Positions 62,282 to 64,000 of a stretch of 64,000 bases of DNA are shown one piece after another. The stretch is from a virus (Duplodnaviria > Caudoviricetes). The position numbers and the translations under genes were made by a program. The DNA is taken from IMG/VR virus record IMGVR_UViG_3300029969_000013, positions 1 through 64,000 of that record. The stretch is one strand, 5' to 3'. Numbering within the stretch: position 1 is the first letter of the stretch; each line of letters begins with the position of its first letter. Under the pieces are notes generated by a model, which saw nothing but the letters and a program-made list of their open reading frames with translations, was not told where the DNA came from and made no database searches.

Positions 62282-62755
62282 ATGATTAAAGAAGTTAAAA
62301 AATGTATGTATCATTCTACATTACTCAATGAGGATTTCGATACACTATTCCATGCAAAGGATGCAGAGCTCAATATACGTATACATATTCGTAAGAATAT
62401 TGAATCGTTGATAAACATAATCGACTACTACAATGAATTATGTGATGAATATAAGTCTGCAGTACATCAGGGTGATTCTGAAAGTGTCGAAAAATATGAA
62501 CAACTGCTCGACGAGACATTCAATAAGTTCTATGAATTAGGTGTCCATAAATTGCTGTTCCCTGAGAATGAAGATTCAGCAGAGGTAGAATTTGAAAAGG
62601 CAATGCGTGCATATTGTGGTGAATCAGATACCGATGATACAGCTGAATGTATGGAAGATGTTGATGTAGAACGTGCACCGTCCAGTGGCATTTTAGTTAA
62701 AGTGCATAAGGTAAGAAGGTCACATTGCGGCAATTGTAACAGATGCAAACAGTAA
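62282..62755 (+). CDS. Acidic hypothetical protein
   Basis: GGAGGA SD. Confidence 0.7.
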   Translation: MIKEVKKCMYHSTLLNEDFDTLFHAKDAELNIRIHIRKNIESLINIIDYYNELCDEYKSAVHQGDSESVEKYEQLLDETFNKFYELGVHKLLFPENEDSAEVEFEKAMRAYCGESDTDDTAECMEDVDVERAPSSGILVKVHKVRRSHCGNCNRCKQ

Positions 62756-62810
62756 ATGATTCAACATTATACATTTAACCTTGTATAATTAGCGATCGTT
62801 ATTATAAGTG

Positions 62811-62880
62811 GCCAAGATGATGCTTGGCAGGGAATCTGCAATGAGCAGAGTACTACCGTCTGTGGGTTGACGGTAGACCA
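62811..62880 (+). ncRNA. Candidate structured RNA: three hairpins ending in an 8-bp stem + ACCA
   Basis: GCCAAG/CTTGGC, TCTGC/GCAGA, CTACCGTC/GACGGTAG then ACCA; starts right after two promoter motifs. Confidence 0.45.
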
Positions 62881-62881
62881 A

Positions 62882-62971
62882 GCCGGAGTAGCCCAAAATC
62901 AGTCAGAGGTACTTGTCAGTCCTAGGCAACGTCAAGAAACAGTGTTGGTTCAAATCCAGCCTCCGGTACCA
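62882..62971 (+). ncRNA. tRNA-like RNA with extended anticodon arm centred on TAG (Leu-like)
   Basis: Acceptor GCCGGAG/CTCCGGT, GTTGG-TTCAAAT-CCAGC T arm, A-CCA end; 15-nt region in place of the 7-nt anticodon loop. Confidence 0.7.
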
Positions 62972-63096
62972 GACTCGCTTTCTTAAGATAGCTTCTTGTT
63001 CCGAGTCTGAAATAGAAAGAAGCTATAGTGTAGTAATATGCAACTATATAGCATATACGTCTTTGACAGTTGAACGGATATAATCAACTGTAATGA

Positions 63097-63173
63097 GGGC
63101 CTTTAGCTTAGTCGGTTAGAGCAGCTGACTCATAATCAGCAGGTCGCCAGTTCGAGACTGGCAAGGCTCACCA
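63097..63173 (+). tRNA. tRNA with CAT anticodon, most likely Ile2 (lysidine type)
   Basis: Full cloverleaf GGGCCTT/AAGGCTC, GCTGA-CTCATAA-TCAGC, encoded CCA; acceptor and D arm resemble Bacillota tRNA-Ile2. Confidence 0.9.
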
Positions 63174-63267
63174 GCCCGAAAGGGCAAAATTTCAATTGTT
63201 GTCATAAAGTTACTTGTTTTTAGTTCATTTTGTCTTAGAAACTTATCATGTATCTAAGACATTTTCT

Positions 63268-63334
63268 CCTTCAATAGCTTAATTAGTAAAGCAAATGTTT
63301 ATTGATGCTGGTGCAAATCCAACTTGAAGGTCCA
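63268..63334 (+). ncRNA. tRNA-like RNA with truncated anticodon arm
   Basis: Perfect acceptor CCTTCAA/TTGAAGG, D arm GCTT/AAGC, T arm GCTGG-TGCAAAT-CCAAC, T-CCA; only 14 nt between D and T arms. Confidence 0.7.
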
Positions 63335-63383
63335 GTCCTAAATAGGACAATCGTTATTAATAACAGAAAGCAACATAAAATGT

Positions 63384-63459
63384 TGGGGTATAGCCAAGTG
63401 GTAAGGCAACAGACTTTGACTCTGTCATCTCGCTGGTTCGAATCCAGCTACTCCAACCA
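63384..63459 (+). tRNA. tRNA-Gln (TTG)
   Basis: TGGGGTA/TACTCCA acceptor, ACAGA-CTTTGAC-TCTGT anticodon arm, TTCGAAT loop, CCA. Confidence 0.95.
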
Positions 63460-63559
63460 GCAGTACGAGTTGCTGCCAATGTAGGTTTTAGAGCAAATGT
63501 TGTTCCTACATAAAAATAAAACAGGTATGTGCGGCGAGACGGACCTAAACGCCGACCAT

Positions 63560-63661
63560 GTAGTGTCAGCGTAGCGAGATGATATGCATTCAACCATATG
63601 GGAATAGGTGGTTTACTCATATGGTAACCACCAGCAGGGGCAGGACCTGCACACTGCACCA
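63560..63661 (+). ncRNA. tRNA-like RNA with enlarged/duplicated central arms and non-consensus T loop
   Basis: Acceptor GTAGTGT/ACACTGC, D stem GCGT/ATGC, GCAGG-7nt-CCTGC arm, A-CCA end. Confidence 0.5.
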
Positions 63662-63702
63662 GCGTCAAAAGACGCACTTTCATAATTCTTTTCTTTTAGG
63701 CG

Positions 63703-63807
63703 AGCAGATGACCTCCAAATCAAATATCTGCAAAGTAGCTCCTTAACTGATGGCCTGAAATTCAGGCCTTAACAAGAACAAGAGGTAACGACTTATGTTC
63801 TTGACCA
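63703..63807 (+). ncRNA. Candidate structured RNA: three hairpins ending in an 8-bp stem + ACCA
   Basis: GCAGAT/ATCTGC, GGCCTGA/TCAGGCC, CAAGAACA/TGTTCTTG then ACCA. Confidence 0.4.
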
Positions 63808-63969: not shown

Positions 63970-64000
63970 CTAGATGTAGCTCAGTTTGGTAGAGTGCTTG
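63970..64000 (+). tRNA. 5' part of a tRNA cut by the window end (Pro-like)
   Basis: CTAGATG-TAGCTCAGTTTGGTAGAGT: canonical D arm; C1 and the following bases resemble tRNA-Pro. Confidence 0.7.

What the first reader, a model, noticed from the sequence alone, without database searches (positions are those of the whole stretch)
62853..63807. Three hairpin+ACCA 'minihelix' units between the tRNAs
Seen: a stem followed immediately by A-CCA occurs three times: CTACCGTC/GACGGTAG-ACCA (62853-62880), CGGCG/CGCCG-ACCA (63532-63558) and CAAGAACA/TGTTCTTG-ACCA (63773-63807). The first and third each close a three-hairpin unit. The second could also form a 4-bp pseudoknot (AGGT 63523 with ACCT 63543), which is weak evidence. 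Known: acceptor minihelices are substrates for CCA-adding enzymes and some synthetases. Inference: deliberately CCA-ended non-tRNA ncRNAs.
Basis: partly seen in the sequence, partly recalled or inferred. Interest (0 to 1): 0.7.

Follow-up and report, generated by a model that had tools for sequence, protein, structure and literature searches.

The report
CCA-tailed hairpin RNAs in phage tRNA island
Between the tRNA genes of a large gut or rumen phage lie small conserved folded RNAs that end in the same ACCA tail as a tRNA without being tRNAs; two of the three reported ones are real, conserved RNA families absent from the RNA family library, and the third is weak.

Summary
Together they exceed chance: 3 observed against 0.28 expected in shuffles, and 2 with 8-bp stems against 0.014.

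- **Setting.** They sit on the tRNA strand in the tRNA island of a 77-kb fragment of a large phage. A relative is a prophage of Ruminococcus callidus.
- **Unit 1 (62808-62880).** This is a conserved RNA found in six lineages: AGGGAA, a hairpin, GUA, an 8-bp hairpin, then ACCA. All three hairpins covary. The core is 90-96% identical between four lineages, as conserved as the canonical tRNAs. A tRNA or tRNA-like gene always follows within 0-1 nt.
- **Unit 3 (63705-63807).** It ends in a 12-layer stem with a 7-nt loop, the geometry of a tRNA minihelix. One clear homologue ends UCCA; one doubtful homologue ends ACCU.
- **Unit 2 (63532-63558).** It is weak. A 5-bp stem before ACCA is at chance level, nothing covaries, the proposed pseudoknot fails, and deeper relatives lack the ACCA. 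It is the end of a leader abutting a new 102-nt pseudoknotted tRNA-like RNA.

Most likely these are co-transcribed modules that RNase P releases with tRNA-like CCA ends. No expression data exist and the function is inferred. None is in Rfam 15. Other first readers of this scan noted the same cluster, on this same genome only.

The parts
62795..62807 (+). Promoter-like motif ATCGTTAT-TATAA directly upstream of unit 1
   Evidence: ATCGTTAT occurs 15 times on the + strand of the 77-kb genome; the 9-base form AATCGTTAT is 14 forward / 3 reverse. The forward copies are mostly intergenic, and the same position is kept in L001/L005. The phage encodes a sigma-70 region-2 protein. A generic sigma-70-like site also lies at 62761-62789. 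The transcription start is inferred, not shown.
62808..62880 (+). Unit 1: hp1 62811-62828; linker AGGGAA 62829-62834; hp2 62835-62849 (loop AAUGA); GUA 62850-62852; hp3 62853-62876 (loop UGUGGGUU); ACCA 62877-62880
   Evidence: Covariance model R1 finds it in window, L001/2/5, L007, L016 (= L053/L054), L037 and weakly L014. 15 of 21 pairs change on both sides and 96% of cells are paired, against 34-45% when partners are slid. MFE z = -3.4. The core is 90-96% identical across four lineages.
62882..62971 (+). tRNA-like gene abutting unit 1 (acceptor GCCGGAG/CUCCGGU, canonical T arm, abnormal anticodon arm, A-CCA)
   Evidence: Rfam tRNA 29.6 bits, E = 8e-4; not called by ARAGORN. Counterparts in L001, L007 and L016 start 0 nt after the ACCA of unit 1.
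63479..63558 (+). Unit 2 leader: hairpin 63479-63511 with a conserved 19-nt loop, an A-rich linker, then hairpin 63532-63554 + ACCA 63555-63558
   Evidence: 83-85% identical in L005 and L016. The 5-bp hairpin has no compensatory change: a G.U appears in L005 and only 3 bp remain in L016. z = -0.4. L015 and L012 have a different hairpin plus AUA(CA)UAU here.
63560..63661 (+). 102-nt pseudoknotted tRNA-like RNA starting 1 nt after unit 2: 7-bp acceptor, D-like hairpin, H-type pseudoknot, T-like arm (loop GGCAGGA), A-CCA
   Evidence: 16 of 33 pairs change on both sides in all five helices on a plain MAFFT alignment. Model R2 finds a fifth lineage, L012 13185-13286, with a fully changed acceptor stem. 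No Rfam or ARAGORN call.
63705..63807 (+). Unit 3: hairpin 63705-63731; hairpin 63752-63768; minihelix 63773-63803 (8 bp + A.A + 3 bp, 7-nt loop GUAACGA); ACCA 63804-63807
   Evidence: MFE z = -3.4, with 0 of 200 shuffles as good. The homologue L015 10676-10710 has two swapped base pairs, a conserved inner GAG/CUU and loop, tail UCCA, and a different strong hairpin upstream. A candidate in L023 4698-4732 has an all-different 8-bp stem and tail ACCU (E = 0.38).
63097..63173 (+). tRNA-Met(CAU), canonical, CCA encoded
   Evidence: ARAGORN and Rfam 67.5 bits.
63268..63334 (+). Short tRNA-like gene with almost no anticodon arm, U-CCA
   Evidence: Rfam tRNA 37.4 bits with 7 nt in place of 15 in the anticodon arm; not called by ARAGORN.
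63384..63459 (+). tRNA-Gln(UUG), canonical, CCA encoded
   Evidence: ARAGORN and Rfam 65.2 bits.
63970..64000 (+). 5' part of tRNA-Pro(UGG), which runs to 64046 beyond the window
   Evidence: ARAGORN on the whole contig.

Best explanation
The three motifs belong to three different small RNA modules in the tRNA island of a large phage of anaerobic Clostridia. They lie on the same strand as the tRNAs and probably on the same transcript.

Unit 1 and unit 3 are independent, conserved structured RNAs. Each ends in a terminal hairpin plus NCCA that imitates the acceptor end of a tRNA. For unit 3 this is a full 12-layer minihelix.

Unit 2 is only the 3' end of a conserved leader in front of a 102-nt pseudoknotted tRNA-like RNA.

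Proposed mechanism (inferred): host RNase P cuts at the 5' end of the tRNA, tRNA-like gene or helix that begins 0-1 nt after the ACCA. That single cut releases the upstream unit with a tRNA-like CCA-OH end. RNase P may also cut at the base of the terminal hairpin and free a 28- or 35-nt mini/microhelix.

The products are non-decoding acceptor-end mimics. They would engage factors that read tRNA 3' ends, such as RNase P, the CCA-adding enzyme, possibly a synthetase, or a host tRNA-end-directed defence. The unusually strong sequence conservation of unit 1 implies a sequence-specific partner that I could not identify.
For: **Shown.**
- The motifs exist and exceed chance.
- Unit 1 occurs in six lineages. 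Compensatory changes are seen in all three helices, and G.U pairs fit only the + strand.
- The unit 1 core is 90-96% identical between lineages whose neighbouring SbcC-like protein is about 40% identical. Canonical tRNAs of the same islands are 61-92% identical.
- The next tRNA-type 5' end lies 0-1 nt after the tail in every lineage, including L014, where the unit sits flush between two tRNA-Leu genes. Canonical tRNA-tRNA spacings are at least 3 nt.
- Unit 3 has a homologue with swapped base pairs and a retained NCCA.
- Perfect stems of at least 7 bp directly before NCCA are about 3.8 times denser in the family's tRNA islands than elsewhere (22 in 77 kb against 101 in 1352 kb).
- About 117 distinct canonical tRNA 3' ends in the family encode CCA, so encoded CCA is the local rule.

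**From the literature.**
- RNase P cleaves acceptor/T-stem hairpin model substrates and several phage non-tRNA RNAs, including M3 and P1/P7 C4 (PMC11143913).
- T4 makes two small RNAs of unknown role, RNAC and RNAD, from its tRNA region (PMC3014915).
Against: - There are no transcript or end-mapping data.
- L037 has ACGA instead of ACCA, and the L023 candidate has ACCU.
- RNAfold pairs GU of the GUA linker with AC of the tail, which would leave only CA free.
- The unit 1 hairpin is 8 bp with an 8-nt loop, shorter than a 12-bp minihelix. None of the loops has the T-loop consensus.
- Unit 2 fails every structural test.
- The family is small: 5-6 lineages for unit 1 and 2-3 for unit 3. The unit 1 alignment was fitted to the model.
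- No tRNA-end enzyme (CCA-adding enzyme, RNA ligase, RtcB) is encoded in the 77 kb held, although the record is only about 51% complete.
Confidence: 0.55

Rival explanations
1. The units are processing and stability signals only, analogous to t-elements. The hairpin+NCCA recruits RNase P or other tRNA-processing enzymes, or blocks exonucleases, so that the long island transcript is cut correctly. The released pieces have no function of their own.
For: - The units always abut another processed element.
- Plant mitochondrial t-elements are tRNA-like cis-signals for RNase P/Z (PMC1920247).
- Earlier follow-ups in this scan read phage minihelices this way (unchecked AI notes).
- The CCA is not strictly kept (L037 ACGA, L023 ACCU).
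- In L015 and L012 the leader before the pseudoknotted RNA has a hairpin without CCA.
Against: - A shape signal does not need 90-96% sequence identity in stem, loop and linkers.
- No ORF ends next to the units need defining, because they lie inside an ORF-free tRNA block.
- Canonical tRNAs in the same islands are processed without such leaders.
Confidence: 0.25
2. The units are decaying remnants of tRNA genes, that is, internal-deletion derivatives that are drifting.
For: Clear deletion-type microhelices sit next to their parent genes: genome 65229-65256 copies the tRNA-Gly acceptor, and L012 13450-13487 copies the acceptor of the pseudoknotted RNA. The island also holds several anticodon-arm-defective tRNA-like genes.
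Against: Units 1 and 3 have no recognisable parent tRNA. Unit 1 is conserved as strongly as real tRNAs across deep divergence, and its covariation maintains the helices. Unit 3 keeps its geometry through two swapped pairs.
Confidence: 0.08
3. For unit 2 only: the 5-bp stem before ACCA is a coincidence inside a conserved leader, and the ACCA has no tRNA-like meaning.
For: - 6-10% of all ACCA in the genome have such a stem.
- z = -0.4.
- No compensatory change is seen, and the stem is eroded in L016.
- It is absent from L015 and L012.
- The proposed pseudoknot is not supported.
Against: The ACCA plus 1-nt spacing to the next acceptor stem is kept in window, L005 and L016, and mirrors the unit 1 arrangement. 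These three are only about 15% diverged here, so this says little.
Confidence: 0.55

Closest known systems
Acceptor/T-arm minihelix and microhelix model substrates of RNase P, CCA-adding enzyme and some aminoacyl-tRNA synthetases
   Same: A hairpin immediately followed by a single-stranded NCCA. Unit 3 has 12 stacked layers and a 7-nt loop, the geometry of the acceptor + T-arm stack. RNase P cleaves such hairpins (PMC11143913), and HisRS charges 13-bp and 8-bp helices (PMC9976931).
   Different: These are natural, genome-encoded and conserved. The loops lack the UUCRANY T-loop consensus. Unit 1 is only 8 bp with an 8-nt loop and is fused to two upstream hairpins through conserved linkers. Cleavage and charging were not tested.
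Small non-tRNA RNAs encoded in phage tRNA regions or processed by RNase P (T4 RNAC/RNAD; phi80 M3 RNA; P1/P7 C4 antisense RNA)
   Same: They are phage-encoded, lie in or next to tRNA genes, and are made by tRNA-processing enzymes. The roles of RNAC and RNAD are unknown (PMC3014915, PMC11143913).
   Different: There is no sequence similarity to any GenBank phage outside the tRNA-Met and tRNA-Gln genes. The architecture differs: three hairpins, with the acceptor mimic made by a local hairpin rather than by the 5' and 3' ends.
t-elements of plant mitochondria (tRNA-like processing signals)
   Same: [quoted passage not shown]
   Different: t-elements mark mRNA ends. These units lie within an ORF-free tRNA block, and unit 1 shows sequence conservation beyond what a shape signal needs.
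tRNA-like structures at the 3' ends of plant RNA virus genomes (e.g. Tymovirus TLS, RF00233)
   Same: The acceptor end is built locally at the 3' end of a longer RNA and terminates in (A)CCA. They are RNase P substrates (PMC11143913).
   Different: There is no Rfam match in the units, and no acceptor pseudoknot or separate T arm in units 1-3. The host is a DNA phage and the element is internal to a polycistronic transcript.
ROOL and GOLLD large RNAs of phage tRNA islands
   Same: Same genomic niche. ROOL sits in the tRNA islands of relatives L016, L037 and the R. callidus prophage. ROOL and GOLLD are often near tRNAs in phages and prophages (PMC5737381; bioRxiv 10.1101/2024.12.08.627333).
   Different: Sizes are 50-110 nt against about 580 nt, with no sequence or structure relation. 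The window's own genome has no ROOL.

Membership tests
Canonical tRNA (Rfam RF00005) | Cloverleaf with the acceptor stem formed by the 5' and 3' ends, a D arm, a 7-nt anticodon loop and a T arm | tested here: not met
   No tRNA match at 62808-62880, 63479-63558 or 63705-63807 even at E <= 10, and ARAGORN calls none. The stems next to ACCA are local hairpins.
Acceptor/T-arm minihelix | About 12 stacked base pairs closed by a 7-nt loop | tested here: inconclusive
   Unit 3 meets it: 8 bp + A.A + 3 bp with a 7-nt loop, and 12 continuous pairs in L015. Unit 1 has 8 bp and an 8-nt loop; unit 2 has 5 bp and a 13-nt loop.
Acceptor/T-arm minihelix | T-loop consensus UUCRANY | tested here: not met
   The loops are UGUGGGUU, AGACGGACCUAAA and GUAACGA.
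Acceptor/T-arm minihelix | Single-stranded 3' NCCA directly after the stem | tested here: inconclusive
   The tail is present in the window for all three units and kept in 5 of 6 unit-1 lineages (L037 has ACGA). RNAfold can pair GU of the linker with AC of the tail.
Acceptor/T-arm minihelix | Cleaved by RNase P, extended by the CCA-adding enzyme, or aminoacylated | not testable with these tools
   Needs in vitro assays or RNA end mapping.
t-element-like processing signal | tRNA-like fold located at the end of an mRNA or ORF, whose terminus it defines | tested here: not met
   The units lie inside the ORF-free block 62760-64110. The nearest upstream ORF ends at 62755 and the promoter-like motif lies in between.
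Phage tRNA-cluster small RNAs (T4 RNAC/RNAD type) | Encoded within the phage tRNA cluster on the tRNA strand | tested here: met
Phage tRNA-cluster small RNAs (T4 RNAC/RNAD type) | Sequence or structure homology to RNAC/RNAD or other described phage RNAs | tested here: not met
   blastn against 50,697 phage records matches only the tRNA-Met and tRNA-Gln genes (query 377-474 and 676-760), never the units. Rfam 15 has no match.
Bacterial tRNA-Pro acceptor identity (considered for all three units) | C1:G72 and A73; the anticodon determinants G35, G36, G37 lie elsewhere in the tRNA (PMC9976931) | tested here: inconclusive
   All three units have C1:G72 + A73. Among the family's canonical CCA-encoding tRNAs this combination is exclusive to tRNA-Pro (10 of 10). 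The unit 1 loop keeps GGG in all lineages. But the L015 homologue of unit 3 has U73, L023 has G1:C72, the hairpin is far too short to span a synthetase, and chance is about 0.5%.

The most novel reading that the evidence does not exclude
The phage tRNA island encodes a set of non-decoding acceptor-end mimics: the unit 1 RNA, the minihelix of unit 3, the pseudoknotted 102-nt RNA, anticodon-less tRNA-like genes and microhelices. They would work as decoys or competitors for factors that read tRNA 3' ends. Unit 1 would be a proline-type mimic, carrying C1:G72, A73, CCA and a conserved GGG loop. It could titrate a host enzyme or a tRNA-end-directed anti-phage toxin, or be charged without ever decoding.
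Probability: 0.15. Interest if true: 0.85.

Novelty: new variant of a known kind. Interest (0 to 1): 0.58.

Why it matters
Phage tRNA islands are known to carry tRNAs and, in some phages, the large ROOL and GOLLD RNAs of unknown function. This locus shows that the same islands hold several small RNA families that keep only the business end of a tRNA (helix + CCA). They are conserved as strongly as real tRNAs, and none is in Rfam.

If they are released as CCA-ended RNAs, they are natural minihelices. Until now minihelices have mainly been laboratory model substrates. They could reveal how phages manipulate or exploit tRNA-end enzymes or escape tRNA-directed immunity.

A cultured strain, Ruminococcus callidus ATCC 27760, carries a prophage with unit 1, the pseudoknotted RNA and ROOL. 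That makes the question experimentally testable.

Tried and rejected
- **Exact and degenerate DNA patterns for unit 1 in IMG/VR.** They returned only contigs of relatives already held.
- **Pattern for the pseudoknotted RNA in IMG/VR.** It also returned only known contigs.
- **SbcC-profile search of IMG/VR.** It added only one contig, L055.
- **Unit 1 model on 151 genomes of the R. callidus family.** Only the one prophage matched, so unit 1 is not a copy of a host RNA.
- **Known families.** No Rfam family matches any unit at E <= 10. There is no ROOL in the window's own genome.
- **tRNA-end enzymes.** No CCA-adding enzyme, RNA ligase or RtcB is encoded in the 77 kb held.
- **'Every CCA is followed by a G-initiated hairpin'.** Across 117 distinct tRNA 3' ends of the family, hairpins start at offset 0 no more often than at offsets 1-11 (24 against 20-27), and G is not the preferred next base. 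I dropped this as a general rule.
It is not maintained in L005 or L016.
- **Unit 1 as a rearranged or permuted tRNA, or a Tymovirus-like TLS.** I found no consistent fold or match.
- **NGG triplets in the loops of units 2 and 3 as proline anticodons.** I gave these no weight, since such triplets are expected by chance in loops of 13-15 nt.
Full report
**Where it is.** The window is the first 64 kb of a 77,110-bp virus record that CheckV estimates as about 51% complete.
- All long ORFs are on the + strand.
- Positions 62760 to about 64110 and 64930 to about 66390 are ORF-poor blocks. They hold canonical tRNA genes: Met 63097, Gln 63384, Pro 63970, Gly 65058 and Leu 66200.
- Rfam scores two further tRNA-like genes only weakly: 62882-62968 and 63268-63331.
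- Upstream genes encode an SbcC/Rad50-like ATPase, a phosphoribosyltransferase-like protein and an S1-domain protein. Downstream genes include a sigma-70 region-2 protein, anaerobic ribonucleotide reductase and an NAD-dependent DNA ligase.
- A profile of the ATPase retrieved 46 related metagenomic loci, with contigs of up to about 250 kb. Most that extend downstream of the ATPase gene carry a tRNA island there.
- One conserved piece of unit 1 occurs once in the chromosome of Ruminococcus callidus ATCC 27760. There it sits in a prophage-like region with 14 tRNAs and a ROOL RNA. The hosts of this phage group therefore probably include anaerobic Clostridia.

**The observation.** All three hairpin+ACCA motifs are exactly as described. 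In 2000 dinucleotide shuffles of 62760-64110:
- ACCA occurs 13 times against 5.2 expected;
- hairpin(>=5 bp)+ACCA occurs 3 times against 0.28 (P = 0.003);
- hairpin(>=8 bp)+ACCA occurs twice against 0.014 (P = 0.0005).

A caveat applies to unit 2. A stem of at least 5 bp precedes 6-10% of all ACCA genome-wide, so unit 2 alone is at chance level. Across the phage family, perfect stems of at least 7 bp directly before NCCA are about 3.8 times denser inside tRNA islands than outside.

**Unit 1 (62808-62880).**
- *Start.* It begins immediately after a strand-specific, mostly intergenic motif, ATCGTTAT-(N)ATAA. ATCGTTAT occurs 15 times on the + strand; its 9-base form AATCGTTAT is 14 forward and 3 reverse.
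- *Relatives.* L001, L002 and L005 carry the same element with hairpins 1 and 2 entirely rewritten but still paired.
- *Model search.* A covariance model built from these found further copies in L007, L016 (also L053/L054), L037 and, weakly, L014.
- *Conserved core.* It reads AGGGAA, hairpin 2 (loop AAUGA), GUA, then CUACCGUC-UGNGGGUU-GACGGUAG, then ACCA. Hairpin 1 is variable.
- *Covariation.* On the model-fitted alignment, 96% of cells pair, against 34-45% when partners are slid. 15 of 21 pairs change on both sides, including 4 of 8 in the terminal hairpin through L014. G.U pairs fit only the + strand.
- *Conservation.* The 52-nt core is 90-96% identical between lineages whose ATPase is about 40% identical. 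Canonical tRNAs in the same islands are 61-92% identical.
- *Junction.* In every lineage a tRNA-type 5' end follows within 0-1 nt. It is a tRNA-like gene with a short or aberrant anticodon arm in window, L001, L007 and L016. It is an acceptor/T-arm minihelix in L037 and a normal tRNA-Leu in L014, where the unit is flush between two tRNA-Leu genes. Canonical tRNA-tRNA junctions in the family are never closer than 3 nt.
- *Exceptions.* L037 reads ACGA. RNAfold can also pair GU of the linker with AC of the tail.

**Unit 2 (63532-63558).**
- The stretch 63484-63662 is 83-85% identical in L005 and L016.
- The 5-bp hairpin shows no compensatory change: a G.U appears in L005 and only 3 bp are left in L016.
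- The region folds no better than shuffles.
- The AGGT/ACCT pseudoknot loses a pair in both relatives.

What is strongly supported is its downstream neighbour, 63560-63661. This 102-nt RNA has a 7-bp acceptor stem, a D-like hairpin, an H-type pseudoknot, a T-like arm (loop GGCAGGA) and A-CCA.
- All five helices covary on a plain MAFFT alignment, with 16 of 33 pairs changed on both sides.
- A fifth lineage, L012, has a completely different acceptor stem.
- In L015 and L012 this RNA is preceded by a different hairpin (GNNNG-GAAAGA-CNNNC) and AUA(CA)UAU, not by ACCA.

So unit 2 is best seen as the end of a lineage-specific leader, and its ACCA may be incidental.

**Unit 3 (63705-63807).**
That makes 12 layers, the geometry of an acceptor + T-arm minihelix.
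- A strong hairpin, 63752-63768, lies 4 nt upstream. The MFE z-score is -3.4.
- L015 10676-10710 has the same 35-nt module. Two base pairs are swapped, the inner GAG/CUU and the loop (GURAYGA) are conserved, the tail is UCCA, and an unrelated strong hairpin lies 2 nt upstream.
- A model built from the two also picks up L023/L024 4698-4732 at E = 0.38. That copy has an all-different 8-bp stem, the same inner helix and loop type, and a strong hairpin 6 nt upstream. It sits right after the island promoter motif, but its tail is ACCU.

**More of the same kind.** These elements lie outside the reported coordinates.
- A 7-bp hairpin+ACCA at 65026-65056 ends 1 nt before tRNA-Gly.
- A microhelix at 65229-65256 is made from the tRNA-Gly acceptor strands.
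- L012 13450-13487 repeats the acceptor stem of the pseudoknotted RNA around a 19-nt loop.

The islands are thus rich in RNAs that keep only helix + NCCA.

**Interpretation.**
- *Shown:* the existence of the motifs, their conservation and covariation, their strand, and their abutment to tRNA-type 5' ends.
- *Inferred from established RNase P biology:* RNase P cleaves the 5' end of any acceptor-like helix, including hairpin model substrates and the phage RNAs M3 and C4 (PMC11143913). Its cut at the downstream element would therefore leave units 1 and 3 with CCA or CCA+1 ends. It could also release the terminal hairpins.
- *Speculative:* the function. The sequence-level conservation of unit 1 argues for a specific partner and against a pure processing signal.

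All three units have C1:G72 + A73. Among the family's canonical CCA-encoding tRNAs that combination is exclusive to tRNA-Pro (10 of 10). [quoted passage not shown] The unit 1 loop also keeps GGG. I treat this as a lead only.

**Comparison with what is known.**
- No Rfam 15 family matches the units.
- No GenBank phage matches them.
- The closest known things are laboratory mini/microhelices, T4 RNAC/RNAD (roles unknown, PMC3014915), phage RNase P substrates, mitochondrial t-elements (PMC1920247) and plant-virus tRNA-like structures.
- ROOL shares the genomic niche in relatives (PMC5737381) but is absent from this genome.
- Other first-stage notes on this same genome describe the cluster in similar terms. 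Follow-ups elsewhere in the scan read phage minihelices as processing signals. I used those as leads and as a rival, not as evidence.

**Verdict.** This is a new variant of a known kind and is moderately to highly interesting.

Noticed in passing
window 63560-63661: A 102-nt tRNA-like RNA whose anticodon region is replaced by an H-type pseudoknot. All five helices covary across five lineages, it ends A-CCA, and it is not in Rfam.
   Followed up: yes
window 62795, 63350 and 13 more + strand sites in the 77-kb genome (e.g. 41219, 50812, 59464, 66353, 66918): Strand-specific, mostly intergenic motif ATCGTTAT(N)ATAAT: ATCGTTAT has 15 + strand copies, and the 9-base form AATCGTTAT is 14 forward / 3 reverse. 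It is shared by relatives. It is probably the promoter class of the phage's own sigma-70-like factor (genome 67842-68441).
   Followed up: partly
genome 65402-65417 (beyond the window); L005 13928, L012 12852 and 13166, L015 11467 and 11543, L016 16539 and 16802: Recurrent small-hairpin motif YGGARAGACR (e.g. UUCG-GAGAGA-CGAA), 23 forward against 1 reverse over the family's loci, several of them in tRNA islands. Its function is unknown.
   Followed up: partly
genome 65026-65056 and 65229-65256 (beyond the window); L012 13450-13487: A further hairpin+ACCA ends 1 nt before tRNA-Gly. Two microhelices reuse the acceptor strands of the neighbouring gene: tRNA-Gly in this genome, and the pseudoknotted RNA in L012.
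   Followed up: partly
window 62882-62971 and 63268-63334: Two tRNA-like genes with good acceptor, D and T arms. One has an over-long anticodon arm and the other almost none. Counterparts in L007 and L016 are 68 nt with a 3-bp/5-nt anticodon stub.
   Followed up: partly
L016 15803-16368, L037 15022-15621, L053 2808-3373; L037 5530-5747: ROOL RNA (285 bits) sits inside the tRNA islands of relatives and of the R. callidus ATCC 27760 prophage. A HEARO RNA lies in L037. Neither is present in the window's own genome.
   Followed up: partly
L053 (NZ_CP186925.1, around 1.4385 Mb): A cultured Ruminococcus callidus strain carries a prophage-like region nearly identical to metagenomic relative L016, which gives a host and an experimental system for this phage group.
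   Followed up: partly
genome 65133-66199 (beyond the window): About 1 kb of ORF-free sequence between tRNA-Gly and tRNA-Leu holds further CCA-ended tRNA-like structures (e.g. ends near 65618 and 65941). It has no Rfam match apart from weak tRNA-type hits.
   Followed up: no
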